Part shown: in pieces, positions 1 to 18,784 of the stretch | How positions within the stretch are numbered: the first letter of the stretch is position 1 | Layout: every line of letters starts with the position of its first letter | Origin: a virus | Taxonomy: Duplodnaviria; Heunggongvirae; Uroviricota; Caudoviricetes | Length of the DNA: 39,239 bases | Strand: one strand, 5' to 3' | IMG/VR virus record: IMGVR_UViG_2737471849_000004 | Span: 1-39,239 of that record | Program-made: the position numbers and the translations under genes | The notes under the pieces: generated by a model | The model's input: only the letters and a program-made list of their open reading frames with translations | Databases searched by the model: none | Told to the model about the DNA's origin: nothing

Positions 1-1248
1 ATGGCACTGAATATTCCATTCAGAAATGCGTACTATCGTTTTGCATCCAGTTACTCATTTCTCTTTTTTATTTCCTGGTCGCTGTGGTGGTCGTTATACG
101 CTATTTGGCTGAAAGGACATCTAGGGTTGACAGGGACGGAATTAGGTACACTTTATTCGGTCAACCAGTTTACCAGCATTCTATTTATGATGTTCTACGG
201 CATCGTTCAGGATAAACTCGGTCTGAAGAAACCGCTCATCTGGTGTATGAGTTTCATCCTGGTCTTGACCGGACCGTTTATGATTTACGTTTATGAACCG
301 TTACTGCAAAGCAATTTTTCTGTAGGTCTAATTCTGGGGGCGCTATTTTTTGGCTTGGGGTATCTGGCGGGATGCGGTTTGCTTGATAGCTTCACCGAAA
401 AAATGGCGCGAAATTTTCATTTCGAATATGGAACAGCGCGCGCCTGGGGATCTTTTGGCTATGCTATTGGCGCGTTCTTTGCCGGCATATTTTTTAGTAT
501 CAGTCCCCATATCAACTTCTGGTTGGTCTCGCTATTTGGCGCTGTATTTATGATGATCAACATGCGTTTTAAAGATAAGGATCACCAGTGCGTAGCGGCA
601 GATGCGGGAGGGGTAAAAAAAGAGGATTTTATCGCAGTTTTCAAGGATCGAAACTTCTGGGTTTTCGTCATATTTATTGTGGGGACGTGGTCTTTCTATA
701 ACATTTTTGATCAACAACTTTTTCCTGTCTTTTATTCAGGTTTATTCGAATCACACGATGTAGGAACGCGCCTGTATGGTTATCTCAACTCATTCCAGGT
801 GGTACTCGAAGCGCTGTGCATGGCGATTATTCCTTTCTTTGTGAATCGGGTAGGGCCAAAAAATGCATTACTTATCGGAGTTGTGATTATGGCGTTGCGT
901 ATCCTTTCCTGCGCGCTGTTCGTTAACCCCTGGATTATTTCATTAGTGAAGTTGTTACATGCCATTGAGGTTCCACTTTGTGTCATATCCGTCTTCAAAT
1001 ACAGCGTGGCAAACTTTGATAAGCGCCTGTCGTCGACGATCTTTCTGATTGGTTTTCAAATTGCCAGTTCGCTTGGGATTGTGCTGCTTTCAACGCCGAC
1101 TGGGATACTCTTTGACCACGCAGGCTACCAAACAGTTTTCTTCGCAATTTCGGGTATTGTCTGCCTGATGTTGCTATTTGGCATTTTCTTCTTGAGTAAA
1201 AAACGCGAGCAAATAGTTATGGAAACGCCTGTACCTTCAGCAATATAG
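1..1248 (+). CDS. cscB: MFS oligosaccharide:H+ symporter, sucrose permease CscB-like (host gene)
   Basis: 415-aa ORF with many hydrophobic segments and a LacY-family loop motif (GIVQDKLGLKKP); N-terminus MALNIPFRNAYYRF matches my recollection of E. coli CscB. Confidence 0.7.
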   Translation: MALNIPFRNAYYRFASSYSFLFFISWSLWWSLYAIWLKGHLGLTGTELGTLYSVNQFTSILFMMFYGIVQDKLGLKKPLIWCMSFILVLTGPFMIYVYEPLLQSNFSVGLILGALFFGLGYLAGCGLLDSFTEKMARNFHFEYGTARAWGSFGYAIGAFFAGIFFSISPHINFWLVSLFGAVFMMINMRFKDKDHQCVAADAGGVKKEDFIAVFKDRNFWVFVIFIVGTWSFYNIFDQQLFPVFYSGLFESHDVGTRLYGYLNSFQVVLEALCMAIIPFFVNRVGPKNALLIGVVIMALRILSCALFVNPWIISLVKLLHAIEVPLCVISVFKYSVANFDKRLSSTIFLIGFQIASSLGIVLLSTPTGILFDHAGYQTVFFAISGIVCLMLLFGIFFLSKKREQIVMETPVPSAI

Positions 1249-1689
1249 ACGTAAACTTTTTCCGGTTGTTGTCGATAGCTCTATATCCCTCAACCGGAAA
1301 ATAATAATAGTAAAATGCTTAGCCCTGCTAATAATCGCCTAATCCAAACGCCTCATTCATGTTCTGGTACAGTCGCTCAAATGTACTTCAGATGCGCGGT
1401 TCGCTGATTTCCAGGACATTGTCGTCATTCAGTGACCTGTCCCGTGTATCACGGTCCTGCGAATTCATCAAGGAATGCATTGCGGAGTGAAGTATCGAGT
1501 CACGCCATATTTCGCTATCAGGATTCTGTGTGATGGTTACATCGCCCGGCTCAGGGCTGTTTAGTCATCAGCGCTTTCTGACAGTGCTGAGATTTCAACC
1601 TGTTGCAGTAAAAATGAGTAGATATAAGGCAAGTGTGCTGCCAAACCCATCTTTTACGGGGTGAAGGTAGATTTCGTTTGAAGGGTATC

Positions 1690-1704
1690 TGGTGTCCCCT
1701 GCAG
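1690..1704 (-). other. Prophage attachment-site core: 15-nt copy of the 3' end of tRNA-Arg (argW), partial, minus strand
   Basis: Reverse complement of tggtgtcccctgcag is ctgcaggggacacca, matching the 3' end of argW as I recall it; no tRNA body follows, so this is a partial att copy. Confidence 0.55.
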
Positions 1705-1777
1705 ACATCTACTTGACGCGGCAGGGGATTGATTGTAATGGTGTTTTTTAGATGTGAAAAATATTTTACCCGCTATT

Positions 1778-1978
1778 TTACCCATTGGCGCGGCTTAAGA
1801 GCTTATTTTTGAATTCACAATGGTCACGATATAACCATCTTGCTCGCCCGTGGATAACTTTGGCTTTTGGCAGGTCGCCGGACTTAATCCGGTCATAAAT
1901 GAAGGTTTTACCGAAGCCAGTATCAGCCATGATGAATTTCAAATCAACTAGTGAATCAGGTTGTAGTTCGTGTTGCAT
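1778..1978 (-). CDS. xis: AlpA-family excisionase / DNA-binding regulator
   Basis: About 66 aa from the ATG preceded by GGAG (track ORF 1778..1993 starts at TTG); sequence DLKFIMADTGFGKTFIYDRIKSGDLPKAKV is typical of AlpA-type HTH proteins. Confidence 0.7.
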   Translation of the reverse strand: MQHELQPDSLVDLKFIMADTGFGKTFIYDRIKSGDLPKAKVIHGRARWLYRDHCEFKNKLLSRANG

Positions 1979-2016
1979 GAGTGCTATCTCCAAATAGGGA
2001 ATCGAACCTGCAAATC

Positions 2017-2045
2017 AGGTAATAAAAAACCGCCATCAGGCGGAT
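2017..2045 (-). terminator. Intrinsic terminator upstream of xis (minus strand)
   Basis: Minus-strand hairpin ccgcctgatggcgg followed by ttttttatt; overlaps the stop of the 55-aa ORF. Confidence 0.5.
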
Positions 2046-2203
2046 TGGTGTTCTTTCAGTTCTTCAATTCGAATATTGGTTACGTCTGCATGTGCTATCT
2101 GCGCCCATATCATCCAGTGGTTATAGCAGTCGTTGATGTCCTCTGCTTCGATAACCCTGTCGAATGGCTCTCCATTCCATTCACCTGTGACTCGGAAGTG
2201 CAT
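2036..2203 (-). CDS. Hypothetical small protein (55 aa)
   Basis: Hand-translated ORF MHFRVTGEWNGEPFDRVIEAEDINDCYNHWMIWAQ... with GGAG upstream; below the track cutoff. Confidence 0.3.
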   Translation of the reverse strand: MHFRVTGEWNGEPFDRVIEAEDINDCYNHWMIWAQIAHADVTNIRIEELKEHQSA

Positions 2204-2361
2204 TTATCATCTCCATAAAACAAAACCCGCCGTAGCGAGCTCAGATAAAAGAAATCCCCGCGAATGCGAGGATTGTTATTGTCTTTGCTTCGTGCATTTG
2301 TCGCACTTTCGGCACCATCCAGATAGGCACATCCGTCCGCAATTAACACATATAGGCCACA

Positions 2362-2640
2362 TCATTTTTCCTCTTTTGGTTTATGAATCTGAATGGTCAT
2401 GCCGCTTTGAGTGGTGACTACAATGACAGAACCAGGCTGAAGGCTGTTAAGATTGAATGCTTCGTAAAACGAATCCAATGCCAGTGCTTTTTTATTCTTT
2501 CGGTTCCACCAACGCCATCCCTTGCTACAGGCTACACTGACAATCCACTGTCCACTCCTGTAAGCCATATAAAACCAGATGAGCAAAACCTGAAGGAATG
2601 CTATCCAGTCAATAATCGTATATTTCGCGAAGGAGTCCAT
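2362..2640 (-). CDS. Hypothetical small membrane protein (about 92 aa)
   Basis: ATG overlaps the stop of the upstream gene (TGATG); one hydrophobic helix IIDWIAFLQVLLIWFYMAY. Confidence 0.4.
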   Translation of the reverse strand: MDSFAKYTIIDWIAFLQVLLIWFYMAYRSGQWIVSVACSKGWRWWNRKNKKALALDSFYEAFNLNSLQPGSVIVVTTQSGMTIQIHKPKEEK

Positions 2641-3161
2641 CACTTCACCTCCTGCGGCGGTTCTGGTAGAGGCATCCAGTGAGTTACGTCATCCAAGATA
2701 TTTCCTGATAAATACGTGAAAGCTCTATATTTTTTGTAATCAATTGGATTTACAACCCAGTTCCAATATGCGGCCACGATTTCACCTTGACTAAATGCCA
2801 GTAACATTTTGGTGTCTTCCGGAATTCGATCACTACAGCTTATCCAACCATCCGGAGTTACCGCCACTGGCTTGGCGGTATAAAGCGGTGTTATATCTGC
2901 CCGAAAATTACATGCTTTATGCAGCCGCACCCACCGTTCGACTTCTGCTTTGTCAGAATACATACCAGTGAACGTGTTATATTCACGGTCAATTTGCGTG
3001 AATGTTACCTTCCACGCCACCGGCTCTGCTCCCAGTGATGCCAGAGCAATTCGTGCCAGTTCTTCCGCTTCTTCTGCTGGCAGTACAACGTTGCTACCAG
3101 GTCCGTATGTTTCGCGCCACTGCTTGATTGTCAGCAGTCGCTCTTTGGTAATAGTGATCAT
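2640..3161 (-). CDS. Phage early protein, DUF551-like
   Basis: 173 aa; C-terminal WMPLPEPP resembles DUF551 phage proteins; ATGA overlap with upstream gene. Confidence 0.5.
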   Translation of the reverse strand: MITITKERLLTIKQWRETYGPGSNVVLPAEEAEELARIALASLGAEPVAWKVTFTQIDREYNTFTGMYSDKAEVERWVRLHKACNFRADITPLYTAKPVAVTPDGWISCSDRIPEDTKMLLAFSQGEIVAAYWNWVVNPIDYKKYRAFTYLSGNILDDVTHWMPLPEPPQEVK

Positions 3162-3673
3162 GCCGCGTTTCCTTCTTTCTTATTAACAATTACACCGTCA
3201 TATATTTCATTAAGGTGCCCTCTCAACTCCATGCGCCTTAATGCAGATAACATGTAATCGCATTCAACCTGCTTATTTCCAGTAAATGGCTTATCGTCAG
3301 GATTACCCCAACAGCAATTACCCTTGGGCCACCCATGTACTTTCCGTACTCTTCCGTTAACAACGTGAAGTAATCCCCAGCCAGGTGGTAAATCCTCAAT
3401 TGAAATAATTCCCGGCTCACTAATAAAGAATCGCCAGTCGCCCATTCCAAGAGACGGATTTTTACGAAAACGCTTTTTTCTATCTGCTAACAAGTCAGCA
3501 CGAGAACACTTCGCTTCTATCAGGCATGATGCTGAATTTCTGAATCCCATAGCATCTGGCTGTTCTCCGGTACTGGTTACAGCTATAAAGCGGTCATGAA
3601 AACAAACCTTGAACCCGTTGCGCTTAAGGAACTTATACGCAATCTGACAGAGTTCACGGTGTGTTAACGCCAT
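3158..3673 (-). CDS. Hypothetical protein with PD-(D/E)xK nuclease-like motif
   Basis: Internal start MALTHREL in track ORF 3158..3745; motif GEQPDAMGF...CLIEAKCS fits the D...ExK signature (MmcB-like). Confidence 0.45.
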   Translation of the reverse strand: MALTHRELCQIAYKFLKRNGFKVCFHDRFIAVTSTGEQPDAMGFRNSASCLIEAKCSRADLLADRKKRFRKNPSLGMGDWRFFISEPGIISIEDLPPGWGLLHVVNGRVRKVHGWPKGNCCWGNPDDKPFTGNKQVECDYMLSALRRMELRGHLNEIYDGVIVNKKEGNAA

Positions 3674-3674
3674 A

Positions 3675-3863
3675 TCACTCTCCTTTAGTGCGCAAGTGGT
3701 TTTTCCAGCGGTTTTGCGCCGCGCTGGGCTTTTTGCAAAAACCACAATCCATCATCCCGTAATATTTCATCAACCCCATCCGTCGGTTGCTGAGTCTCAC
3801 CCACTGCCAGACGCCAGGAGCGTTTCTACGAACTAACAGAATCTTTGCTTTACGGTTTTTCAT
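3675..3863 (-). CDS. Hypothetical small basic protein (62 aa)
   Basis: Track ORF; start and stop overlap the neighbouring ORFs in ATGA fashion; no recognisable domain. Confidence 0.3.
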   Translation of the reverse strand: MKNRKAKILLVRRNAPGVWQWVRLSNRRMGLMKYYGMMDCGFCKKPSAAQNRWKNHLRTKGE

Positions 3864-4036
3864 CGTTTTGCTCTCCTGCGTTTCTTTGCTTCGCGTCGTG
3901 CAGCCGCAATACCGGTATGGCGGCGCTTTGGTGCCGGGATGATGTTGTCAGCCATCAGGACATGCGGCTTCGCAATTAGCGCAGAAGCCCAAAAACGATT
4001 CGGGTACGGTAACAAGCCGATACATGCCACACGCAT
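3860..4036 (-). CDS. Hypothetical small protein (57 aa)
   Basis: Hand-translated; start overlaps the stop of the Ea22-like gene (TAATG) and its stop overlaps the next ATG. Confidence 0.25.
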   Translation of the reverse strand: MRVACIGLLPYPNRFWASALIAKPHVLMADNIIPAPKRRHTGIAAARREAKKRRRAKR

Positions 4037-4603
4037 TACTCACCTCCTTTGATGCGAATGCCAGCGTCAGACATCATATGCAGATACTCAACTGCATCCT
4101 GAACCCATTGACCGCCAATCCCGTAATAGCGATGCGTAATGATGTCGATAGTTACTAACGGGTCTTGTTCGATTAACTTCCGCAGAAACTCTTCCAGGTC
4201 ACCAATGCAGTGCTTGATGACAGGAGTTTTCCCAGGATGGCGAACAACAAGAAACTGATTTCCGACTTCACGGACTTCGTTGCTTTCCAGTTCTGCAATG
4301 CGCTTCTCTGCGGCTTCCAGCTCAACTCTCAGCTTCCCTACCGTTAGCGCAATATCCTCGTTCTCCTGATCGCGGCTTTTGATGTACTGCTGGTTTCTTT
4401 CCCGTTCATCCAGCAGTTCCAGCACGGTTTCTGGTCCGGTCAGAAATTTGAAGGCGTTGAGCGCATCAATATCCACACCGTAATCTTTAAGTTCCTGTTC
4501 ACTTAACAAATCATCATCAACTGGCAACATTAACAGGCGTTCCATTGCTGGAATTGCACGTTCTGCTGCCTCACGCAGTGCCTGGTAATTAATTTTACTC
4601 ACT
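4036..4603 (-). CDS. Ead/Ea22-like early protein
   Basis: Track ORF 4036..4623; likely GTG start 6 nt after AAAGGAGG giving [16 protein letters not shown]...; coiled-coil middle region. Confidence 0.5.
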
Positions 4604-4767
4604 GGTTGCCTCCTTTGCGCCACATCGCATTCAGATATTTGTTTTGATTCACTGATGGAAAAGAATTTCTCTTAAGCAATTCCTCTCTCGATGGCATTGG
4701 CTTTACGCGTTGGCGAATAATCATTTCTGCTGGAAGAATGCCGGGATTGTATACAAGTCCTCTCATG
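4600..4767 (-). CDS. Hypothetical small protein (55 aa)
   Basis: Hand-translated [41 protein letters not shown]...; stop overlaps the start of the Ea22-like gene. Confidence 0.25.
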
Positions 4768-4782
4768 GTGAATTCCTCTTTG

Positions 4783-5097
4783 TTAATTTATTCGTATGCC
4801 TGCTCTTTCTTCATCGAGTTTTTTTAGCTTGTATCGCATAGCTCTTACTGAATAAATTGAGCGGCAGGTTGCAATTGCTATTTCTTCTGCGGAGAACTTA
4901 CCGAAAAGTGATACTTCGGCTCTTGTCCAGCGTCTTCCACGAAGTCGGCTAACAATGTCAGCGCCAATCCTTGTTGCTTTCGCCATTACTGCTTTTTCAG
5001 TCCTTTCCAGTTTTTCAGCGATAACTTCAACTGGCATTGTCGCCGCCACTTCGCGCAAGAAATCGACTTCCCATTTCTCCCATGGAGTCTTTTTCAT
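4783..5097 (-). CDS. Hypothetical protein with two tandem W-x3-E repeats (possible DNA-binding)
   Basis: 104 aa; two internal repeats ([14 protein letters not shown]... and [14 protein letters not shown]...). Confidence 0.45.
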
Positions 5098-5108
5098 AGG
5101 CGATACCG

Positions 5109-5597
5109 TTATTTGATAAGAAGTGAAGGTTTCCCAACTTTGAGTTGAGCGCCGGGGATATTTATTCCTGCTTTTAGTTGGTGTTTGATTGCCAGTTTGT
5201 CGGCTTTAATTGTCGTTTCAAACTCAACGTATTCAGGAGGAAGGGCGCTTGAGTCGATGATTTCTACAGTTTCTGACGGTTTGCGGATTGTTACCTGGTG
5301 AATACCTGCTCTAATCTTTTTCTTGCCAACCATTTCAAGCGATGACGCTATATACGCCATAATGCTGCCAATCTTATTTTGAATTACTGCGGCTCGCTCA
5401 TTCAGTGACTTTGCCTCTTCCTTGAGGCGTTCAGCATAACCAGATTCATTTTTAATAATGGCAAGAAGTTGCTCTATTTTATCGGTAAATTCTCCTTCCA
5501 TGCCTTCTATTGTGTCAGCAATCATCTCTGGTTCTAAATCTGAATCCATCAATTTTGCGTATTCATTGGCAATTTCATACAGTTTGCTCACTGGCAA
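5109..5597 (-). CDS. Siphovirus Gp157-like protein (RecT-associated)
   Basis: 162 aa immediately downstream of RecT and overlapping it; composition and position typical of Gp157-family partners. Confidence 0.5.
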   Translation of the reverse strand: MPVSKLYEIANEYAKLMDSDLEPEMIADTIEGMEGEFTDKIEQLLAIIKNESGYAERLKEEAKSLNERAAVIQNKIGSIMAYIASSLEMVGKKKIRAGIHQVTIRKPSETVEIIDSSALPPEYVEFETTIKADKLAIKHQLKAGINIPGAQLKVGKPSLLIK

Positions 5598-6486
5598 CCT
5601 CCAGTTTCGCTTTGCATTCTATGTAAATGGCTTGTACGTTCTGCTGCAATTTCATTCCAGATGTCAGGCGATATGCTTCTGCAAAATATCGCTTCAAATC
5701 ATCCATGTTTTCTGCCTGAGCCATTTCATCGCAAAGAAGTTGTGCTTTATCCATTATTTCCTGCTGGCGTTTCCGTTCATCTTCGCGGATATCTTCCTCT
5801 GATTTGTGCGGCATAACTGGTTCGGTCCACACGCCTTCTTCTTCGTTTAGTACGTGAATAGCACTATCAAGGCGTGATGCCTTAGGCCAATACTTGCTTG
5901 CACGCTTTACGACCGTCTTTCGCGCCATCTCATTCCAGTGATTTACCCATGGTCCTTTATCGCTGAATGCTGCCTTGCTTGTTTTCCTTACAGCCTCAAT
6001 TTCAGCCAGACTCATCTCTTCCGTTAGATAATCACCTGCTGGCGTCTTAACTGTGCAGTAAACGCCAACGATATCACCACGGTCACCGAAGGCGTTGTAT
6101 TTATGGGTTGGTGCTTTATCAAGCCCGTTTGACTCATAGGTATCGTTAGCATGAACAAGTTTTGCCTGACCCCATGAGATAACACCAGACTCCATTGCAA
6201 TATGGAGCAATCCCATATAGCTGATATCAAGGCACACCATGCCGTCGCGAGGAACCAGATAAGCCAGTTTGCTGGCCGGGTTTAAGGTGATGCCGATCGC
6301 CGCAACATTGATGATGGCGTTCTGTGCGCTGGTTGGATTTGCCAGTGCTGTTTTAGCCAGGTAATCGTTTTTCTGGAAATACTGAATTGCAAACTGGCTT
6401 TCCTTAGCCCATGTCACCGTCTGTTCAGTCAATGCTCCGCAGAATAACTGCTCCTGCTGTTTAACGAATTCAACGATATTGCTCAT
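5575..6486 (-). CDS. recT: RecT-family single-strand annealing recombinase
   Basis: 303 aa; RecT-like core (LAYLVPRDGMVCLDISYMGL...GDIVGVYCTVKT...WPKASRL). Confidence 0.85.
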   Translation of the reverse strand: MSNIVEFVKQQEQLFCGALTEQTVTWAKESQFAIQYFQKNDYLAKTALANPTSAQNAIINVAAIGITLNPASKLAYLVPRDGMVCLDISYMGLLHIAMESGVISWGQAKLVHANDTYESNGLDKAPTHKYNAFGDRGDIVGVYCTVKTPAGDYLTEEMSLAEIEAVRKTSKAAFSDKGPWVNHWNEMARKTVVKRASKYWPKASRLDSAIHVLNEEEGVWTEPVMPHKSEEDIREDERKRQQEIMDKAQLLCDEMAQAENMDDLKRYFAEAYRLTSGMKLQQNVQAIYIECKAKLEVASEQTV

Positions 6487-6794
6487 GCAGCTTCTCCAAA
6501 AATGTGTCTGCGTTTGAATATTGCGAAGGCATATTCAGCCTTAACTCTTTCGGTTATTGCATCCCAGAACCATTCAGCGGCTTTTTCCTGATAGTTACAG
6601 TCATCATCTTCCAGCCAGTCGATAGCGTCCTTAGTGTGTTCATCTGGTTTATATGAGCGAAGCATTTCGCTTATTGGGTCGCAACGTTTGCAGAGGCGAT
6701 CAACTTCACTGTTGATTCGTTCGTAATCTTCATCAGTAAAACTTGCGATTATTTGCGATATTTCACGCTTATCATTCAGAGTCAGAATCATCAT
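6483..6794 (-). CDS. Hypothetical early protein (103 aa)
   Basis: ATGA-coupled to recT; acidic; no recognisable motif. Confidence 0.45.
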   Translation of the reverse strand: MMILTLNDKREISQIIASFTDEDYERINSEVDRLCKRCDPISEMLRSYKPDEHTKDAIDWLEDDDCNYQEKAAEWFWDAITERVKAEYAFAIFKRRHIFGEAA

Positions 6795-6875
6795 CTTTCT
6801 CCTGTTCTTTGTGCTGATTGAGCATTTCTTTCATCTGACGAATGAATTCTTCGTCTGACCAGTTATCTGTAAAAC

Positions 6876-7028
6876 TCATTTCCTGCGATACCACGGAAGG
6901 TTGATAGCTGATTTCATCGCTTTATTTGCTTCAAGCCACATTTTTGAATCACCAATAAATCGGGCTATTACTGCTTTGTTCTGTGCAGCACGAAGCATCT
7001 GGTGATTAATGGCTATTTCATTGCGCAT
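6876..7028 (-). CDS. kil: Kil-like host-division inhibitor (50 aa)
   Basis: Hand-translated MRNEIAINHQMLRAAQNKAVIARFIGDSKMWLEA...; the IARFIGDSKMWLEA segment resembles lambda Kil as I recall it; GGAGG upstream. Confidence 0.45.
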   Translation of the reverse strand: MRNEIAINHQMLRAAQNKAVIARFIGDSKMWLEANKAMKSAINLPWYRRK

Positions 7029-7147
7029 AACGCCTCCAGTTGTTTCTTTGCTGCTCTGATTAATTGTTTAACTCGGCGTGATAATTCAGATTCGTGCGGG
7101 TAGAAAGCGGACATGACGCCGCTACCCGCGAGCTGAAAGTGCATCAT
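7013..7147 (-). CDS. cIII: cIII-like protease inhibitor (about 44 aa)
   Basis: Internal start MMHFQLAGSGVMSAFYPHESELSRRVKQL... with AAGGAG 7 nt upstream; resembles the lambda CIII core. Confidence 0.45.
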   Translation of the reverse strand: MMHFQLAGSGVMSAFYPHESELSRRVKQLIRAAKKQLEALCAMK

Positions 7148-7210
7148 GGGTAACTCCTTATATTTGATTGCATAACGAAAACGCCTCGAGTGAAGCGTTA
7201 TTGGTATGCA

Positions 7211-7237
7211 TATAAAAAGGCCCTCACACTGGAGGGC
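7211..7237 (-). terminator. Intrinsic terminator in the leftward early operon
   Basis: Hairpin gccctc/gagggc followed by a T-run on the minus strand. Confidence 0.5.
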
Positions 7238-7351
7238 AAAGAAGATTTCCAATAATCAGAACAAGTCGGCTCCTGTTTAGTTACGAGCGACATTGCTCCG
7301 TGTATTCACTCGTTGGAATGAATACACAGTGCAGTGTTTATTCTGTTGTTT

Positions 7352-7384
7352 ATGCCAAAAATAAAGGCCACCATCAGGCAGCCT
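7352..7384 (-). terminator. Intrinsic terminator after the post-N ORF
   Basis: Minus-strand hairpin aggctgcc-tgat-ggtggcct followed by ttatttttgg; overlaps the stop codon. Confidence 0.45.
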
Positions 7385-7625
7385 TGTTGTAAATGTTGCA
7401 GGTATCAAGTAAGTAATTAGATGGAGCGCCATAAATTATGAATTCATCGTTTGTCGGGTCCATCTCCATCTCTTGGCCTATTGCCATTCTTGCGTCAGTG
7501 TCGTCAGCGGCGAAGCATAAAACAGCCCACGCACCCATTGTTTTAAAAAGAACTGCAATTGGCTGTGGTTTTACTGAATTTGCGTTAGCGCGAAAATCAC
7601 AAATCGCACTTTCATGAAACTCCAT
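7374..7625 (-). CDS. Hypothetical protein downstream of N (83 aa)
   Basis: Track ORF in the first position after N; no recognisable motif. Confidence 0.45.
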   Translation of the reverse strand: MEFHESAICDFRANANSVKPQPIAVLFKTMGAWAVLCFAADDTDARMAIGQEMEMDPTNDEFIIYGAPSNYLLDTCNIYNKAA

Positions 7626-7633
7626 ATCTCACC

Positions 7634-7960
7634 TCAAATAAGTGGTTTGCTGCCTAATTTCATTTTCTGGCGACCAACACAAGTCACACCCATTTCACTG
7701 CGTGGCTTGCTGTACCATGTGCGCTGATTCTTGCGTTCAATACGTTGCAGGCTGCTTTCAATCTGTTCGTGGTATTCAGCCAGCACTGTAAGGTCTATCG
7801 GATTCAGTGCGCTTTCTACTCGTGATTTCGGTTTGCGATTCAGCGAGAGAATAGGGCGGTTAACTGGTTTTGCGCTTACCCCAACCAACAGGGGATTTGC
7901 TGCTTTCCATTGAGCCTGTTTCTCTGCGCGACGTTCGCGGCGGCGTGTTTGTGCATCCAT
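7634..7960 (-). CDS. N: Antitermination protein N (lambda-type)
   Basis: From MDAQTRRRERRAEKQAQWKAANPLLVGVSAKPVNRPILSLNRKPKSRVESALNPIDLTVLAEYH...; matches lambda N including the arginine-rich motif. Confidence 0.9.
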   Translation of the reverse strand: MDAQTRRRERRAEKQAQWKAANPLLVGVSAKPVNRPILSLNRKPKSRVESALNPIDLTVLAEYHEQIESSLQRIERKNQRTWYSKPRSEMGVTCVGRQKMKLGSKPLI

Positions 7961-8132
7961 CTGGATTCTCCTGTCAGTTAGCTTTGGTGGTGTGGTAGGT
8001 GGGAGACCCATTTCGACCTGCTTCGGCCGACTTCAATTCGGCAATAGTTCCGCAGGCCTCGCCGCTTTACGTGCGACATATTCCCATCCATGAACCCTTC
8101 ACCACACCCCAAAGCCTTCTGCTTTGAATGCT

Positions 8133-8162
8133 GCCCTTCTTCAGGGCTTAATTTTTAAGAGC
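8133..8162 (-). promoter_or_regulatory. nutL (boxB hairpin and boxA-like element)
   Basis: gcccttcttcagggc is the reverse complement of lambda boxB; ttaagagca next to it is a near match to boxA. Confidence 0.75.
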
Positions 8163-8199
8163 ACCACCTTCATGGTGGTCAGTGCGTCCTGCTGATGGC

Positions 8200-8260
8200 T
8201 TAAAATATACCTACAGGTAAAACATCTGTCTATACCTGTAGGTAAATAAAATTGATGTGA
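8200..8260 (-). promoter_or_regulatory. PL promoter with OL operators
   Basis: Palindromic 12-mers tacctacaggta (8208..8219) and tacctgtaggta (8233..8244) overlap a leftward -35 TAGACA / -10 TATATT pair. Confidence 0.55.
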
Positions 8261-8304
8261 GAGTTTACCTGCTTGAATTTTCAGGTAATTAATTTTTTGG
8301 ATTG

Positions 8305-8331
8305 ATATAAAAAAGCCCGCTTTGCGGGCTG
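8305..8331 (-). terminator. Intrinsic terminator ending the cI operon
   Basis: Minus-strand hairpin agcccgcaaagcgggct followed by a T-run. Confidence 0.7.
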
Positions 8332-8341
8332 AAAGGAGATG

Positions 8342-8656
8342 TCAGAAGCTATTTGGATTGCTTGGCCATTGCGGCAATTTTGATTCTACTGGGGTGTGTT
8401 TGGGTTTGAGTCCGTTTAAGTAGTCAAGGCGCTCAATGGCGCATTTATACATAGCAATCTGCTCTGATGACATGTCGTCGTATGACATGCCTTTGAACTT
8501 TTTAATTATTGATTCTGCCTCATGTATAAGATGCTTCTTCCTCATGAGTTCAGCTGTATGCTTAGAGCTTACAGGAGATAACTTTGCCCATATGAAGCAG
8601 ATGATTACAACAGCGACTACTATGCCGGGTATAAACATTTGCTGCTTTATCCTCAA
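8342..8656 (-). CDS. Small membrane-anchored protein co-transcribed with cI (candidate exclusion/abortive-infection factor)
   Basis: 104 aa; start overlaps the cI stop; N-terminal TM helix FIPGIVVAVVIICFIWA then a charged soluble domain; followed by a terminator. Confidence 0.6.
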   Translation of the reverse strand: MRIKQQMFIPGIVVAVVIICFIWAKLSPVSSKHTAELMRKKHLIHEAESIIKKFKGMSYDDMSSEQIAMYKCAIERLDYLNGLKPKHTPVESKLPQWPSNPNSF

Positions 8657-9339
8657 ACTTTTGGCAGATCGTCCTGGTCTACGTACCTGGTGTGTTTCAC
8701 AATAGCTGAAACAAAATGCATTTTATCAACTTCTTCAACAGGAAGAGTGATTGGGCGGTGATCACTGTTTATGCTACTAAACTGATAATCACCGTCTCTT
8801 GTTTTGTTCATGATCTTTATCATGTTGTGACCGTCTTTGGTCCTTACAAAGACTTCATCACCTGGATGTACTGGCGTATTTGGTTCAATAACAACATATT
8901 CTCCTGACTGAATCCTTGGCCACATGCTGTCACCCTTAACCTTCAGACCGTAAGCATCTTTATCGCCGCTGTAGATGCTTAACCAACCGGATCTGAATTC
9001 AATCATATCCACTGAGCCATCAACTCCCAAAACGGCTTCACCAATTACCGGAACAAAACCCGCACGAACGTTACCCGCAAACTCAAGATGGTCCGTAGCT
9101 CCAGCTTTACCATCTGCAAGCATGTCCATCCATCCGCGTGGGAGATTAAAAGATTTTTCAATTAGTTCCATCATATCGTCAGCAATGCGTTTTTTTCCGC
9201 TTTTTCCTTCCGGATACAGCATTCTGGAAACGTATGATGGTTCCCTTTCTATTCGACGAGCCAACTCTGAGGCCTTTCCATTACAGAATCGGTCTCTTAT
9301 CTCTATCAGCCTTAGTCGTCTTTGTTCGTATTTATCCAT
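8653..9339 (-). CDS. cI: CI-type prophage repressor (HTH + S24 LexA-like peptidase domain)
   Basis: 228 aa; C-terminal GDSMWPRI...VVIEP and a conserved Lys typical of S24 autocleavage domains; flanked by operators. Confidence 0.85.
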   Translation of the reverse strand: MDKYEQRRLRLIEIRDRFCNGKASELARRIEREPSYVSRMLYPEGKSGKKRIADDMMELIEKSFNLPRGWMDMLADGKAGATDHLEFAGNVRAGFVPVIGEAVLGVDGSVDMIEFRSGWLSIYSGDKDAYGLKVKGDSMWPRIQSGEYVVIEPNTPVHPGDEVFVRTKDGHNMIKIMNKTRDGDYQFSSINSDHRPITLPVEEVDKMHFVSAIVKHTRYVDQDDLPKV

Positions 9340-9354
9340 GATTTAATTCTATCT

Positions 9355-9415
9355 TTGATTACCTGCCGGTAAATAACCTATGGGTATTGATTTGCTTTTT
9401 ACCTACAGGTAAACT
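9355..9415 (+). promoter_or_regulatory. OR operators with PR (and divergent PRM)
   Basis: tacctgccggta (9360..9371) and tacctacaggta (9400..9411) share the half-site of the OL operators; -35 TTGATT / -10 TAAACT upstream of cro. Confidence 0.55.
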
Positions 9416-9447
9416 CATCTTATTCAACAACGGGAAGGAGATAGCAA

Positions 9448-9678
9448 ATGGAAGAACTCCGCTTGTATCTGAACTCCCTTTCACTGGAAGAGCAGAGAGA
9501 ATTTGCCACCAAGTGCGGAACTTCTATCGGCTATTTGAGGAAAGCACTTAGCCGTAATCATGAATTGGGCGCAGCACTTTGTGTTCTGATTGAGAAGTTC
9601 AGCAATGGTGAAGTGACTCGCAAAGACCTTCATCCGGTTGATTGGGAAAGCATCTGGCCTGAATTAATGGCCGCTTAA
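9448..9678 (+). CDS. cro: Cro-like early repressor
   Basis: 76 aa, first gene rightward from PR; HTH-like segment ATKCGTSIGYLRKALS. Confidence 0.6.
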   Translation: MEELRLYLNSLSLEEQREFATKCGTSIGYLRKALSRNHELGAALCVLIEKFSNGEVTRKDLHPVDWESIWPELMAA

Positions 9679-9686
9679 GTTATTAA

Positions 9687-9718
9687 CGCTCTTACACATC
9701 CCAGCCCTGAAAAAGGGC
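9687..9718 (+). promoter_or_regulatory. nutR (boxA cgctcttac, boxB gccctgaaaaagggc)
   Basis: Matches lambda nutR boxA and boxB as I recall them; lambda-like tR1 region follows. Confidence 0.8.
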
Positions 9719-9797
9719 ATCAAATTAAACCACACCTATGGTGTATGCATTTATTTGCATACATTCAATCAATTGTTATCTAAGGAAATACTTACAT

Positions 9798-10091
9798 ATG
9801 GTTCGTGCAAACAAACGCAACGAGGCTCTACGAATCGAGAGTGCGTTGCTTAACAAAATCGCAATGCTTGGAACTGAGAAGACAGCGGAAGCTGTGGGAG
9901 TTGATAAGTCGCAGATCAGCAGGTGGAAGAGGGACTGGATTCCAAAGTTCTCAATGCTGCTTGCTGTTCTTGAATGGGGCGTCGTTGACGACGACATGGC
10001 TCGATTGGCACGACAAGTTGCTTCGATTCTCACCAATAAAAAACGCCCGGCGGCAACCGAGCGTTCTGATCAAATACAAATGGAATTCTGA
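9798..10091 (+). CDS. cII: Transcriptional activator CII (lambda-type)
   Basis: [47 protein letters not shown]... matches lambda CII; TTGCN6TTGC site on the opposite strand at the 5' end. Confidence 0.9.
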
Positions 10092-10123
10092 GGTCATTAC
10101 TGGATCAATCCACAGGAGTCATT

Positions 10124-10270
10124 ATGACAAAACAACTCAGTCCTTACCAGGACAAAATTCACAAACACATACTACGTGATCGCTTCCTGTCCAGCTTCAA
10201 GCAGCCTGGTCGATTCCGGGCTGAGTTGGAAAAAGTGAAGCTGATGCAGAAGGAGAAAGGTCATGAGTAA
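10124..10270 (+). CDS. Hypothetical small protein between cII and O (48 aa)
   Basis: Hand-translated [42 protein letters not shown]...; AGGAG upstream; stop overlaps the O start. Confidence 0.3.
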
Positions 10271-11162
10271 CATATCTAATCTAGCCGAAGCCAGAGAGGC
10301 CAGAAGGCTACAACAACCGCATCAAAGCAGCGGTAAGGGGTATGCCTTGCTGCACCGTAAAATTATGGATGTGCCGTTTTACAAGGACGCAGAAGCTGCG
10401 CATCTGTGGGTTCACTTAATCCTCAAAGCAAAGCATACGCCTGAGTATGTAATGACTGACGCAGGAGAAATTCTGGTAGGCAGAGGGAAGCTACTTGGCG
10501 GTAGAAACTCTCTGGCGTTTGAAACAGGACTCAAACCAGATCGCGTTCAGTACCTGCTTAGAAAGTTCAAAAAACTCGGCATGATTGACTGGGTTTCACA
10601 CGGTAAATTCTCAGTTTTCTCGGTAGAGAAATATGACGATTATCAGTCAAATTTTGTACCAGCAGATTACCAGCAAATTACCACCTCAAAGCCAGCAATA
10701 CCAATGCCTGCAAGCAATACTGTACCAGCAGATTACCAGCAAATTACCACAGATAAAGAATATAATAATATTATCTCTAATACTGACGTATTAGAGAGTG
10801 CCACAGCAGACAAAAAGTCTGACAAGAAAAAACCTTCCGTTAGCTGTCAGGATGTTGTCGATGCTTACCACGAAATCCTTCCTGAAGCGCCAAGAATCCG
10901 CGCACTGAATGACAAGCGTAAAAACCAGATCCGAACGTTCTGGCGCAAAGCCGGAGTGATAACCCGCCAGCTTGACGGGCATGGGTTCACGATGCAGGAC
11001 TGGAGAAATTATTTGAGCTACGTAGGCGAAAATTGCCGATGGATGTTCGAAGAACGCCCAAACCATCAACGCGGAACTGTCTGGCACAAAAAGGGATTTG
11101 ATTTCCTGCTTAACGATAATACCTACCTGAAAGTTCGTGAGGGTGAACACGATGACCGATAA
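10263..11162 (+). CDS. Replication initiator (O-like / P22 gp18-like) containing the origin
   Basis: 299 aa at the O position; internal repeat [10 protein letters not shown] reflects DNA iterons; overlaps the helicase gene. Confidence 0.7.
10656..10780. repeat. Origin of replication: two 29-bp direct repeats with ATTACC sub-iterons plus AT-rich segment
   Basis: gtaccagcagattaccagcaaattaccac at 10656..10684 and 10722..10750, followed by agataaagaatataataatattatctctaa. Confidence 0.65.
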
Positions 11163-12588
11163 TTTTTATGCGCCGCCCCATAGCATCGAGGCAGAGCAGG
11201 CGGTGATTGGTGGATTGCTTCTGGATGATGACAGCAGTGAGCGCGTCCAGAAAGTTCTGGCGATGCTGAAGCCTGATTCATTTTACAGCCGACCACACAA
11301 AATCATTTTCGAAGAAATAACCAGAATGCACCGTGAGCAAAAGCCAGTAGATGGCCTGACGCTTTTCGAAGAACTGGAGCGTAAATCGTTAACGGCGTCT
11401 GTTGGCGGTTTTGCTTATATCGCTGAGATCGCAAAGAACACGCCAAGCGCAGCAAACATCGTTGCTTATGCAATGCAGGTTCGCGAAACCGCAATGGAAC
11501 GCTACGCTATCAACCGCATGACTGAAGCGACGGAATTGCTCTATTCCCGCAATGGAATGACTGCAACGCAGAAGTACGAAGCTATTCAGGCGATTTTCAC
11601 GCAACTGACAGACCATGCAAAAACCGGATCGCGTCGCGGCCTTCGCTCATTTGGTGAGGTCATGGAAGACTGGGTTAGCGACCTTGAGAAGCGATTTGAT
11701 CCATCAGGCGAACAACGGGGAATGAGCACAGGGATCCCATCGCTGGACAGGATGCTGTCACCGAAAGGTCTGGTGAAAGGCTCTCTGTTTGTCATTGGCG
11801 CTCGCCCTAAGATGGGGAAAACGACGCTATACAGCCAGATGGCAATCAACTGCGCAGTGCATGAGAAAAAGCCTGCTCTGATGTTCAGCCTTGAAATGCC
11901 AGGTGATCAGATACTGGAAAAACTGGTAGGACAGAAGTCAGGTGTTAACCCGAATATTTTTTACCTTCCGGCGACAAATGACGCTGATGACGGCTATCAG
12001 GGTGATTACGATGGTGACTTCAACAGGGCGATCGAAACAGCAAATCGCTTGAGTGAAATCGACCTGCTTTACATCGACGACACGCCGGGATTATCTCTGG
12101 CTCAAATCGTCAGCGAAAGCCGTCGAATCAAGCGAGAAAAAGGATGTGTTGGCATGATTCTGGTCGATTACCTGACACTAATGACCGCTGAGAAGGCCGA
12201 TCGCAACGACCTTGCTTACGGCATGATCACCAAAGGACTGAAGAACCTTGCCAAAGAGCTTGATTGCGTTGTTGTGCTTCTGACGCAGCTTAACCGCGCA
12301 CTGGAAAGCCGAACCAATAAACGCCCATTACCAAGTGACTCACGAGATACAGGGCAGATTGAACAGGATTGCGATTATTGGGTTGGGATCCATCGTGAAG
12401 GCGCTTTTGATGACAGTGTTCCACCTGGTGAAACCGAACTAATCCTTCGTCTCAATCGTCATGGCAATACCGGCACGGTGTATTGCATTCAGGCAAATGG
12501 CGCTATTTATGACACAGACCAACAGTCTGCTGAAATGCGCCGACGTGAACGCGAGGAACCGCAGTCCAAGAAGAAAGGAGGATTCTGA
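11152..12588 (+). CDS. DnaB-family replicative helicase (P22 gene 12-like)
   Basis: N-terminal SIEAEQAVIGGLLLD motif; Walker A GARPKMGKTT; about 479 aa from the internal ATG. Confidence 0.85.
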   Translation: MTDNFYAPPHSIEAEQAVIGGLLLDDDSSERVQKVLAMLKPDSFYSRPHKIIFEEITRMHREQKPVDGLTLFEELERKSLTASVGGFAYIAEIAKNTPSAANIVAYAMQVRETAMERYAINRMTEATELLYSRNGMTATQKYEAIQAIFTQLTDHAKTGSRRGLRSFGEVMEDWVSDLEKRFDPSGEQRGMSTGIPSLDRMLSPKGLVKGSLFVIGARPKMGKTTLYSQMAINCAVHEKKPALMFSLEMPGDQILEKLVGQKSGVNPNIFYLPATNDADDGYQGDYDGDFNRAIETANRLSEIDLLYIDDTPGLSLAQIVSESRRIKREKGCVGMILVDYLTLMTAEKADRNDLAYGMITKGLKNLAKELDCVVVLLTQLNRALESRTNKRPLPSDSRDTGQIEQDCDYWVGIHREGAFDDSVPPGETELILRLNRHGNTGTVYCIQANGAIYDTDQQSAEMRRREREEPQSKKKGGF

Positions 12589-12616
12589 TGACCATCTACA
12601 TCACTGAGCTTGTAAC

Positions 12617-12648
12617 AGGCCTGCTGGTAATCGCAGGCCTTTTTATTT
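12617..12648 (+). terminator. Intrinsic terminator after the replication genes (tR2-like)
   Basis: Hairpin aggcctgc...gcaggcct followed by ttttattt. Confidence 0.65.
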
Positions 12649-12664
12649 GGGGGAGAGGGAATTC

Positions 12665-13105
12665 ATGAAAAAACTAACCTTTGAAATTCGATCTCCGGCA
12701 CATCAGCAAAACGCTATTCACGCAGTACAGCAAATCCTTCCAGACCAAACCAAACCAATCGTAGTAACCATTCAGGAACGCAACCGCAGCTTAGACCAGA
12801 ATCGAAAGCTTTGGGCTTGCCTTGGTGACGTCTCTCGTCAGGTTGAATGGCATGGTCGCTGGCTGGATGCAGAAAGCTGGAAGTGTGTGTTTACCGCAGC
12901 ATTAAAGCAGCAGGACGTTGTTCCTAACCTTGCCGGGAATGGCTTTGTGGTAATAGGCCAGTCAACCAGCAAGATGCGTGTAAGCGAATTTGCGGAGCTA
13001 TTAGAGCTTATACAGGCATTCGGTACAGAGCGTGGCGTTAAGTGGTCAGACGAAGCGCGACTGGCTCTCGAATGGAAAGCGCGATGGGGAGATCGGGCTG
13101 CATGA
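12665..13105 (+). CDS. ninB: NinB (Orf) recombination protein
   Basis: MKKLTFEIRSPAHQQNAIHAVQQILPD... matches lambda NinB. Confidence 0.9.
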   Translation: MKKLTFEIRSPAHQQNAIHAVQQILPDQTKPIVVTIQERNRSLDQNRKLWACLGDVSRQVEWHGRWLDAESWKCVFTAALKQQDVVPNLAGNGFVVIGQSTSKMRVSEFAELLELIQAFGTERGVKWSDEARLALEWKARWGDRAA

Positions 13106-13629
13106 CTATCAAATCAAATACGCCAGCACACGACAAGGACTGCTGGCAAACGCCGCTTTGGCTTTTTGATGCGCTGGATATTGAGTTTGGATTCTGGCTG
13201 GATTCGGCAGCGAGCGACAAAAATGCTCTGTGCGCTCACTGGTTAACTGAGGCCGACGACGCGCTCAATTCTGAGTGGGTAAGCCACGGTGCAATCTGGA
13301 ATAACCCACCGTACAGCAATATCAGGCCGTGGGTGGAAAAAGCCGCTGAGCAGTGCATACAACAGCGACAGACGGTAGTTATGCTTGTGCCACAGGATAT
13401 GTCAGTCGGATGGTTCAGCAAGGCTCTGGAGAGTGTCGACGAAGTTCGTATTATCACTGATGGACGGATTAATTTTATCGAACCATCGACAGGGCTAGAG
13501 AAGAAGGGAAACAGCAAAGGTTCCATGCTGCTGATTTGGCGACCGTTCATCAGTCCTCGACGGATGTTTACTACCGTATCCAAAGCGGCATTGATGGCGA
13601 TCGGGCAGGGCGTCAGGAGGGCGGCATGA
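13102..13629 (+). CDS. Phage DNA N6-adenine methyltransferase (Dam-like)
   Basis: 175 aa with NPPYS catalytic motif; ATGA-coupled to ninB. Confidence 0.75.
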
Positions 13630-13802
13630 GGCGACAGCGACGAAGTTTCACCGACATCATCTGCGAAAACTGCAAATACCTTCCAACGAAACGCACCAGA
13701 AATAAACGCAAGCCAATCCCGAAAGAATCTGACGTAAAAACCTTCAACTACACGGCTCACCTGTGGGATATCCGGTGGCTAAGACATCGTGCGAGGAAAT
13801 GA
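13626..13802 (+). CDS. ninE: NinE
   Basis: [51 protein letters not shown] matches lambda NinE. Confidence 0.85.
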
Positions 13803-14164
13803 CAATGGATTATTCACAGTTAAGTGATTTTGAAATTAACAAGCGAGTGGCAATTTGCTGTGGATTTGCTCCCGAAGATTGCGAAATCGCAAAGTTGGGA
13901 ACATCAATCGTTGGTGTTGAGTGGGATGACGAAACTGGTTATGCAATAAAAACGGTTGATTACTGTAAAAGCCCATCAGACGCAGAGCCGATTATCGTAG
14001 AGAACAGAATTGGCATTATTCCAGCGCCAGAAAATGGATTATGGAAGGCAGCGCATAGAAAAGTTGGCAGTGATAGTACCCCATATCATATGACTCAAGA
14101 TGAAAACCCACTCCGCGCTGCCATGATTGTCTTTCTCATGATGCAGGATGCCAATAATGCTTAG
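13799..14164 (+). CDS. Nin-region protein (NinX/DUF2591-like)
   Basis: Internal start [23 protein letters not shown]...; ATGA-coupled to ninE. Confidence 0.45.
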
Positions 14165-15944: not shown

Positions 15945-15951
15945 CCATAAT
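15922..15951 (+). promoter_or_regulatory. Putative late promoter PR' (-35 TTGACA, -10 CATAAT)
   Basis: TTGACA at 15922..15927, 18-bp spacer, CATAAT at 15946..15951; a hairpin plus T-run follows about 50 nt downstream. Confidence 0.45.
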
Positions 15952-16082: not shown

Positions 16083-16087
16083 AACAT

Positions 16088-18781: not shown

Positions 18782-18784
18782 GAG

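What the first reader, a model, noticed from the sequence alone, without database searches (positions are those of the whole stretch)
1249..1993. Prophage left junction has an argW-type att core and excisionase but no integrase
A 15-nt match to the 3' end of tRNA-Arg sits about 70 bp from an AlpA-type excisionase gene. The sucrose permease gene ends only about 440 bp further left, and that stretch has no ORF of 60 aa or more and no recognisable integrase fragment in any frame I translated. Integrase is normally adjacent to att, so it has been deleted or lies elsewhere. The prophage may be unable to excise on its own, or may depend on a recombinase supplied in trans. A second, T-arm-like 15-mer just upstream of xis may be a relic of an older att.
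Basis: partly seen in the sequence, partly recalled or inferred. Interest (0 to 1): 0.5.

Follow-up and report, generated by a model that had tools for sequence, protein, structure and literature searches.

The report
Normal argW prophage end; integrase opposite
This is the ordinary right-hand junction of a P22-like prophage sitting in the argW tRNA gene: in this well-studied phage group the attachment site lies between the excisionase and integrase genes, so the integrase sits at the other end of the prophage, just past the edge of the window.

Summary
Bases 1690-1704 are the last 15 nt of tRNA-Arg(CCU) argW. The gene 73 bp away (1778-1978, minus strand) encodes a protein 100% identical to TorI, the KplE1 excisionase (PDB 1Z4H). 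No integrase lies between it and cscB.

The inference that the integrase is missing is wrong. Window 1249-1704 is 456/456 identical to the unoccupied cscB-argW interval of two E. coli genomes, so the 441-bp stretch is host spacer.

A public contig 100% identical to the last 12,010 bases of the window continues past the tailspike gene. It carries an intact 385-aa IntS integrase, a complete argW, then yfdC. That gives a clean 40.5-kb insertion between 15-bp repeats.

KplE1, HK620, Sf6 and Kapi1 all place attP between int and xis. Published work describes the resulting split of the two genes to opposite prophage ends.

The second tRNA-like motif is a 16-mer at 1998-2013 (argW nt 46-61), 20 nt upstream of the torI start codon. 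A 12-13-nt core of it recurs in torI-family leaders across Enterobacterales with unrelated flanks. I found no description of this, and its function is unknown.

The parts
1..1248 (+). cscB sucrose permease (host gene flanking the integration site)
   Evidence: 415-aa ORF. Annotated as cscB / oligosaccharide MFS transporter in matching genomes.
1249..1689 (.). Native host spacer between cscB and argW (the attB flank). It is not prophage DNA and not a deletion scar.
   Evidence: 100% identical to the cscB-argW interval of genomes with an unoccupied site (KFu024, FORC_069). Present as a single copy in 2645 of 5426 E. coli genomes. Some RefSeq records annotate a short DUF4942 pseudogene fragment here.
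1690..1704 (-). att core of attR: a 15-nt duplicate of argW nt 61-75 (CTGCAGGGGACACCA), equivalent to K-12 'pawZ'
   Evidence: Homology to free phage genomes (Kapi1, N7, HK620, Sf6) starts exactly at 1690. Identity to the empty site ends exactly at 1704. K-12 annotates the same 15 nt as pawZ.
1705..1777 (-). P arm of attR. It includes a GGGTAAAAT box (1763-1771) of the TAAA-containing IntS arm-site type.
   Evidence: The stretch from the torI stop codon to the end of the core (1690-1780) is 87/91 identical to K-12 KplE1 attR and to the left side of HK620 attP. The arm-site motif is described in PMC2951348. The in-vitro attR substrate starts in the torI 3' end (PMC3509656).
1778..1978 (-). torI (= hkaC of HK620, gene 18 of Sf6): recombination directionality factor (excisionase)
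   Evidence: 66 aa, 66/66 identical to PDB 1Z4H 'Tor inhibition protein'. 100% identical copies occur in HK620, Sf6, Kapi1 and others. Annotated torI in RefSeq relatives.
1998..2013 (-). T-arm-like box in the torI leader: TTGCAGGTTCGATTCC = argW nt 46-61. It sits 20 nt upstream of the ATG, just 5' of the GGAG ribosome-binding site.
   Evidence: It is conserved in 10 of 13 aligned lineages with unrelated flanks. It overlaps the predicted 'phage integration' promoter and cII site of the HK620 record and pI of the Sf6 record.
2030..2043 (-). Terminator-like hairpin plus T-run of the upstream early-left gene. It marks the inner mosaic boundary of the recombination module.
   Evidence: Lambdoid phages with other integration modules (HK022, mEp213, HK106) share homology only from about 2021 rightward. 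Three different terminators abut the same conserved leader in IMG/VR relatives.
2036..39239 (.). Body of a P22-like (Lederbergvirus-type) prophage: early-left genes, RecT, S24 repressor, DnaB-type helicase, Dam, Q, tRNA-Asn/Thr, lysis, terminase, portal, coat, ejection proteins, Ant/Arc, and tailspike at 37230-39239. The prophage continues about 2.95 kb beyond the window.
   Evidence: Gene order matches the annotated CAVP773 prophage. The continuation in L003 holds two ORFs, then intS at window-equivalent 40857-42014, then argW at 42176-42250.

Best explanation
Bases 1690-2020 are the attR side of the IntS/TorI (KplE1-HK620-Sf6-type) site-specific recombination module of a complete P22-like prophage integrated into the 3' end of argW. 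In the circular phage the order is torI - P arm - 15/16-bp core - P' arm - intS. Integration at the core therefore splits the module. torI stays at the junction with the partial tRNA copy (attR, next to cscB here). intS, with its promoter inside attL, ends up about 40 kb away next to the reconstituted argW. Excision would use IntS made at a low constitutive level from attL, plus TorI made from the early-left transcript, plus IHF, as shown experimentally for KplE1. Shown here: the sequence identities, the boundaries, and the layout in relatives and in an identical contig. Inferred: that this particular prophage is excision-competent.
For: 1. The RDF is 66/66 identical to TorI of PDB 1Z4H.
2. 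The core equals argW nt 61-75. Identity between attL and attR is exactly 15 nt.
3. Window 1249-1704 is 456/456 identical to the unoccupied cscB-argW site of two genomes and diverges at 1705. The argW side of L003 is 700/700 identical to the same empty site. Together these give a clean 40,486-bp insertion.
4. L003 is 100% identical to window 27230-39239 (12,010 nt). It then carries a 385-aa integrase with Arm-DNA-bind_3, Phage_int_M and Phage_integrase domains. That integrase is 97-98% identical to K-12 IntS and to the HK620 and Sf6 Int. An intact tRNA-Arg(CCU) and yfdC follow.
5. attL is 173/179 identical and attR 87/91 identical to the characterised K-12 sites. The PintS -35 box and the TAAA arm boxes are included.
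6. The same end-to-end layout is annotated in CAVP773 (cscB-torI ... tailspike-intS-argW-yfdC) and in K-12 CPS-53. Free phages HK620, Sf6, Midgardsormr38, Chronis, EhrS_49, Emek and phiEt88 have xis, a gap of about 250 bp holding the core, then int.
7. The literature says attP lies between int and xis, so the two genes sit at either end of the prophage (PMC8787464). [quoted passage not shown]
Against: The integrase and the intact argW are not inside the window. Their presence in the source genome is inferred from an identical overlapping contig of another sequencing run, not read directly. A second run (SRR25825039) carries a deletion derivative of the same prophage. Its contig stops 142 nt after the tailspike, so variants of this prophage exist. 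No experiment shows excision of this prophage.
Confidence: 0.93

Rival explanations
1. This is a defective prophage that lost its integrase. It cannot excise unless a recombinase is supplied in trans.
For: No integrase gene or fragment lies next to the att core, or anywhere else in the window.
Against: The stretch where an integrase was expected is the native host spacer, 456/456 identical to empty sites. The module places int at the other end by design. An identical contig shows an intact 385-aa IntS next to argW.
Confidence: 0.04
2. The T-arm-like box upstream of torI is a neutral relic of an older att site or tRNA fragment, with no present function.
For: It is a 16/16 match to argW nt 46-61, on the same strand as the core. 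It ends exactly where the core (nt 61-75) begins, so the two pieces tile the last 30 nt of argW. It lies at the inner mosaic edge of the module. It is cleanly absent in Dryocola, Tatumella, Rouxiella, Chronis, EhrS_49 and Emek, so it is dispensable.
Against: An att relic should hold the duplicated 3' end of the tRNA, not the 5' T-stem and loop. The 12-13-nt core AGGTTCGATTCC(C) is kept in Escherichia, Serratia, Pantoea, Edwardsiella and Erwinia lineages. Citrobacter and Enterobacter carry one-base or two-base variants of it. Flanking bases are unrelated, and the distance to the ribosome-binding site stays similar. It is tandemly duplicated in Midgardsormr38. Uniform decay is not seen.
Confidence: 0.3
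3. The T-arm-like box is part of a promoter or operator. One option is the CII-dependent 'integration' promoter pI predicted in the HK620 and Sf6 records. Another is a TorI operator, since TorI sites are of the GTTCG type.
For: The HK620 record places a promoter at 1664-1702 and a cII site TTGCCTGATTTGC over it, and the Sf6 record places pI there. The box contains GGTTCG, like the phased GTTCG-type repeats next to the PintS -35 box, where PMC2951348 places the TorI sites.
Against: The TTGC repeats are not conserved in the Erwinia, Serratia and Edwardsiella leaders that keep the box. No sigma-70-like site is found there by pattern scan. Conservation extends through ATTCC(C), beyond the TorI-site consensus. 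phiEt88 keeps the box although its P'-arm repeats are GATGTAACC-type, not GTTCG. That is a single lineage, and its closer relatives lack the box.
Confidence: 0.25

Closest known systems
KplE1 (CPS-53) cryptic prophage of E. coli K-12: IntS / TorI / argW recombination module
   Same: TorI protein is identical. IntS is 98% identical (from the identical contig). The same core lies at the argW 3' end. attR is 87/91 and attL 173/179 identical. intS sits at the argW end and torI at the far end (PMC2951348, PMC3509656).
   Different: KplE1 is a 10.2-kb remnant flanked by dsdC, with a 16-nt repeat. Here the module serves a full-length, roughly 40.5-kb P22-like prophage flanked by cscB, and the repeat is 15 nt because the host flank differs.
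Temperate P22-like phages HK620, Sf6, CUS-3 and Kapi1 (argW integrators)
   Same: The phage order is xis (hkaC / gene 18) - attP core - int. The RDF is identical and the core is identical. The overall architecture is P22-like, with the tailspike next to the int end.
   Different: The tailspike receptor-binding part, and the genes between tailspike and int, differ. Here there is a 375-aa ORF of unknown family, where Sf6 has oac. Early-left accessory genes are mosaic.
Phage lambda int-xis-attP module
   Same: It uses a tyrosine integrase with arm-type and core-type sites, a small winged-helix RDF and IHF, and it excises by attL x attR recombination.
   Different: In lambda attP lies downstream of int, so int and xis stay adjacent at attL and share pL/pI control. 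Here attP lies between them, the int promoter sits inside attL and is autoregulated, and excision control rests on RDF expression (PMC2951348).

Membership tests
IntS/TorI (KplE1-HK620-Sf6-type) argW recombination module | RDF is TorI/HkaC, a 66-aa winged-helix protein | tested here: met
   66/66 identity to PDB 1Z4H. 100% identical in HK620, Sf6 and Kapi1.
IntS/TorI (KplE1-HK620-Sf6-type) argW recombination module | A 15-16-nt core identical to the 3' end of argW, present at both prophage ends | tested here: met
   The attR copy lies at window 1690-1704. The attL copy lies inside an intact argW in contig L003, which is 100% identical to window 27230-39239. The second copy itself lies outside the window.
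IntS/TorI (KplE1-HK620-Sf6-type) argW recombination module | attP lies between xis and int, so the prophage has int at the tRNA end and xis at the far end | tested here: met
   Layouts in L003, CAVP773, K-12, HK620, Sf6 and Kapi1. Stated in PMC8787464.
IntS/TorI (KplE1-HK620-Sf6-type) argW recombination module | P4-family tyrosine integrase IntS, intact | tested here: met
   385 aa, with Arm-DNA-bind_3, Phage_int_M and Phage_integrase domains above Pfam cut-offs. 97-98% identical to IntS and to the HK620 and Sf6 Int. It is read from L003, not from the window.
IntS/TorI (KplE1-HK620-Sf6-type) argW recombination module | IntS arm sites (TAAA boxes) and TorI sites overlap PintS in attL, and an arm site lies in attR | tested here: met
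   Shown by sequence identity only. attL is 173/179 and attR 87/91 identical to K-12, with TTGACA and the GGGTAAAA boxes intact (PMC2951348). Binding was not tested.
IntS/TorI (KplE1-HK620-Sf6-type) argW recombination module | Excision that depends on IntS, TorI and IHF | not testable with these tools
   Needs PCR for attP/attB junctions or an in-vitro recombination assay.
P22-like (Lederbergvirus-type) temperate phage | P22-type virion module: Head_binding tailspike, gp4/gp10/gp26, ejection proteins gp7/gp20/gp16, Ant/Arc region | tested here: met
   Pfam Head_binding and P22_AR_C hits. Precomputed Pfam hits on the identical contig: Phage_stabilise, Phage_tail_NK, P22_gp7, Inj_translocase, Phage_P22_gp16. 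Annotated relative.
AlpA family (Pfam PF05930, Phage_AlpA) | Match to the Pfam AlpA model at its gathering score | tested here: not met
   Only a sub-threshold HTH_17 hit (16.9 bits against a cut-off of 27) and no AlpA hit at E <= 0.01. No NCBIfam hit. Some phage records label homologues COG3311/AlpA, so 'AlpA-type' is a loose label.
Integrase-less defective prophage remnant | No cognate integrase at either prophage end | tested here: not met
   An intact intS lies next to argW in the identical contig and in relatives.

The most novel reading that the evidence does not exclude
The T-arm-like box in the torI leader (AGGTTCGATTCC, a copy of the argW segment immediately 5' of the crossover region, that is, the B half-site of attB) may be a selected cis-element of this recombination module. 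One example mechanism: IntS bound through its core-binding domain, perhaps bridged to the arm site just after torI, would hold back torI expression in the lysogen. That would add RDF control by the integrase to the known control of intS by IntS and TorI.
Probability: 0.25. Interest if true: 0.45.

Novelty: already known. Interest (0 to 1): 0.15.

Why it matters
The result removes a false alarm. An excisionase next to att without an integrase is the expected look of the attR end for argW-integrating P22-like phages and KplE1. It should not be scored as prophage decay. Prophage-boundary and 'intactness' callers that expect int and xis side by side will mis-score this large group. The one loose end of some interest is the conserved tRNA-T-arm-like box in front of torI. 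The published model says excision of these prophages is controlled mainly through RDF expression, and the torI promoter was described as uncharacterised in 2010.

Tried and rejected
- I looked for any other argW-derived segment in window 1-2400, using 14-mers with up to 2 mismatches on both strands. Only the core and the T-arm box were found.
- tblastn of IntS against the window gave nothing. Pfam scans of ten large window ORFs gave no recombinase.
- Rfam gave no family on 1200-2400. The only hit was a weak STnc130 match (24 bits against a threshold of 55) carried by the terminator hairpin.
- RNAalifold on ten box-bearing leaders gave -2.5 kcal/mol with no useful covariation. I therefore dropped a conserved RNA hairpin or T-arm mimic.
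- I tried a covariation test on modules that target other tRNAs. All 21 genome loci and the phage relatives target an argW-type core. The Pseudomonas phi297/F116 AlpA-int modules are organised differently, with convergent genes, and are not comparable. More distant IntS relatives (30-37% identity) were not pursued.
- The first IMG/VR scan with a TorI alignment returned only 100%-identical copies.
- One look-up failed because I trimmed a minus-strand ORF at the wrong end; the repeat worked.
- The 2007 JBC paper that defines the att sites and the argW-dsdCXA island paper are not held in the library.
- I considered that the torI leader after the box (GGAGATAGCA) is a decayed copy of the acceptor end (GGGGACACCA, 7/10). 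I rejected this as unprovable, because a ribosome-binding site is expected there anyway.

Full report
**What is in the sequence**

The window opens with cscB (1-1248, plus strand). The 15-mer TGGTGTCCCCTGCAG occurs once, at 1690-1704. Its reverse complement, CTGCAGGGGACACCA, is nt 61-75 of the 75-nt tRNA-Arg(CCU) gene argW. I read argW from three related loci, and all three copies are identical to each other. About 7e-5 exact copies are expected by chance in the window.

An ORF lies 73 bp to the right on the minus strand. Its real start is the ATG at 1978, giving 1778-1978 and 66 aa. The protein is 66/66 identical to the 'Tor inhibition protein' TorI of PDB entry 1Z4H.

Between cscB and the core there is no ORF longer than 44 aa. 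Nothing in the window resembles IntS. The window holds only two tRNA genes, Asn and Thr at 16008-16163.

**What the 441-bp stretch is**

Window 1249-1689 occurs as a single chromosomal copy in 2645 of 5426 complete E. coli genomes. In strains KFu024 and FORC_069 it lies between cscB and an intact argW, followed by yfdC and mlaA. These are unoccupied attachment sites.

Window 1249-1704 is 456/456 identical to those empty sites. Identity stops exactly at 1704/1705. The stretch is native host spacer downstream of argW. An integrase could not have been lost from it.

**Where the integrase is**

The window ends at the stop codon of a P22-type tailspike gene (37230-39239, Pfam Head_binding). A look-up of that exact protein returned a 101-kb contig from run SRR2239639 (locus L003). 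L003 is 100% identical to window 27230-39239 over 12,010 nt.

Beyond the tailspike, L003 carries the following, in order:
- two minus-strand ORFs;
- a 385-aa tyrosine integrase with Arm-DNA-bind_3, Phage_int_M and Phage_integrase domains;
- an intact tRNA-Arg(CCU);
- yfdC and mlaA.

The integrase is 97-98% identical over its full length to K-12 IntS and to the integrases of HK620, Sf6 and the CAVP773 prophage. From argW onward, L003 is 700/700 identical to the empty site, and it shares no identity with the empty site to the left of the tRNA 3' end.

Left and right junctions therefore reconstruct a clean insertion of 40,486 bp bounded by the 15-bp repeat. intS would lie at window-equivalent 40857-42014 and argW at 42176-42250. 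Identity between attL and attR is exactly 15 nt.

**Why int and xis are apart**

The same layout is annotated end to end in E. coli CAVP773: cscB, torI, a P22-like prophage, tailspike, intS, tRNA-Arg, yfdC. It is also annotated in K-12 CPS-53/KplE1: argW, intS..., torI, the 15-nt pseudogene pawZ, dsdC.

In free phage genomes the order is xis, a gap of about 250 bp holding the core, then int. This holds for HK620, Sf6, Midgardsormr38, Chronis, EhrS_49, Emek and phiEt88. The Kapi1 record starts at the att site with xis beside it, and its paper reports the same order. Homology of these phages to the window begins exactly at base 1690.

The literature describes this directly:
- KplE1 is bordered by the duplicated core CTGCAGGGGACACCAT. 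[quoted passage not shown]
- The RDF of HK620 and Sf6 is 100% identical to TorI (PMC3509656).

The window's attR is 87/91 identical to the characterised K-12 site, and L003's attL is 173/179 identical. The PintS -35 box and the TAAA-type IntS arm boxes are retained.

The best explanation is that this is the normal attR end of an IntS/TorI module serving an apparently complete P22-like prophage. Excision competence is inferred, not shown. The integrase itself lies outside the window and is read from an identical contig.

**The second motif**

On the same strand as the core, 1998-2013 reads TTGCAGGTTCGATTCC, a 16/16 match to argW nt 46-61. It ends where the core (nt 61-75) begins, so the two pieces tile the last 30 nt of argW with torI and the P arm between them. 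About 6e-6 such matches are expected by chance within 400 nt of the core.

The motif sits 20 nt upstream of the torI ATG, just 5' of the GGAG ribosome-binding site. It lies just 3' of a terminator-like hairpin at 2030-2043. It is identical in K-12 KplE1, Sf6, HK620, Kapi1 and CAVP773.

Lambdoid phages with other integration modules share homology only from about 2021 rightward. Three different terminators abut the same leader in IMG/VR relatives. The box therefore lies at the inner edge of the module.

Conservation in more distant relatives is as follows:
- A 12-13-nt core, AGGTTCGATTCC(C), recurs at a similar distance from the ribosome-binding site in Serratia, Pantoea and Edwardsiella prophages and in Erwinia phage phiEt88.
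- Citrobacter and Enterobacter prophages carry one-base or two-base variants of it.
- It occurs twice in tandem in Erwinia phage Midgardsormr38.
- The flanks are otherwise unrelated between these lineages.
- It is absent in Dryocola (a clean 25-nt gap), Tatumella, Rouxiella, some Pantoea, Chronis, EhrS_49 and Emek.
- Closer relatives of phiEt88 lack it.

I scanned IMG/VR for the box followed by GGAG. Among the first 120 contigs there were 124 matches. Of these, 38 were TorI-family leaders, 64 were true tRNA genes, and 22 were unclassified, mostly with a T-arm-plus-acceptor look.

There is no conserved RNA fold and no Rfam family. The HK620 and Sf6 records place a predicted CII-dependent 'integration' promoter over this spot. 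However, the TTGC repeats are not conserved where the box is.

In many relatives the bases just left of the core read TTCGATGT|ATGCAGGGG. This resembles argW TTCGATTCC|TGCAGGGG. That suggests the T-loop bases belong to the integrase's core-type half-site.

My reading is that the box is a copy of the attB half-site immediately 5' of the crossover. It is probably under selection but dispensable, and its function is unknown. I did not find it described in the papers I could read. I could not read the 2007 JBC paper that maps the sites.

**Comparison and verdict**

This is a member of the IntS/TorI argW module. Every sequence-level defining feature was tested and met, and only excision itself could not be tested. 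The virion genes are P22-like.

'AlpA-type' is a loose label. The protein misses Pfam's AlpA model, although some records tag homologues COG3311.

The arrangement is already known and experimentally characterised, so interest is low. The T-arm box is the only element that might repay an experiment.

Noticed in passing
window 1998-2013 (minus strand); also L014:2440-2480, L018:2465-2480, L105, L108, L111-L113: The T-arm-like box AGGTTCGATTCC(C) in the torI leader is conserved across Enterobacterales modules with unrelated flanks, tandemly duplicated in Erwinia phage Midgardsormr38, and cleanly absent in others. With the att core it tiles argW nt 46-75.
   Followed up: partly
window 9535-29356; L004 and L009 (contig SRR25825039_27): A second public assembly carries the same prophage, 100% identical on both sides, with a 19.8-kb internal deletion. 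The deletion joins the repressor region to the DUF2824 gene across a 4-bp overlap and removes replication, lysis and head genes.
   Followed up: partly
window 1388-1480 (minus strand), inside the host spacer: RefSeq annotates a short DUF4942-domain pseudogene fragment here in many genomes. The cscB-argW spacer may therefore itself be a remnant of an older integrated island. In O157:H7 strain MB41-1 the spacer is followed by a 'recombinase family protein' gene and a different element instead of argW.
   Followed up: no
L003:12023-13275 (about 13 bp to 1.3 kb beyond the window's right end): A 375-aa and a 42-aa ORF lie between tailspike and intS and have no Pfam or NCBIfam match. They occupy the slot where Sf6 has the O-antigen acetylase oac and Kapi1 has hyp24, so they are candidate serotype-conversion genes.
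   Followed up: no
window 16008-16163: A tRNA-Asn(GUU) and tRNA-Thr(UGU) pair lies between the Q antiterminator region and the lysis genes. The same pair is annotated in the CAVP773 prophage.
   Followed up: no
window 1732-1760 (minus strand): The only sigma-70-like hit in 1600-2400 (TTTTCA-17-TACAAT) lies in the attR P arm and points across the core. In the circular phage it would read toward int. The count is no higher than in shuffles, so it may be chance.
   Followed up: no
L104 (MAG 'Actinomycetes bacterium') and L118 (MAG 'Parachlamydiaceae bacterium'): Enterobacterial-type torI modules (85-92% identity, argW-type core) appear on short contigs of MAGs assigned to unrelated phyla. This is most likely binning contamination.
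   Followed up: no
attP/attR of relatives: L014, L015, L018, L105, L106, L108: The bases immediately left of the core are (A/G)TTCGATGT, which resemble the argW T-loop TTCGATTCC. GATGTC and GACACC form an inverted repeat around TGCAGGG, which suggests a 7-bp overlap region at argW nt 62-68.
   Followed up: partly
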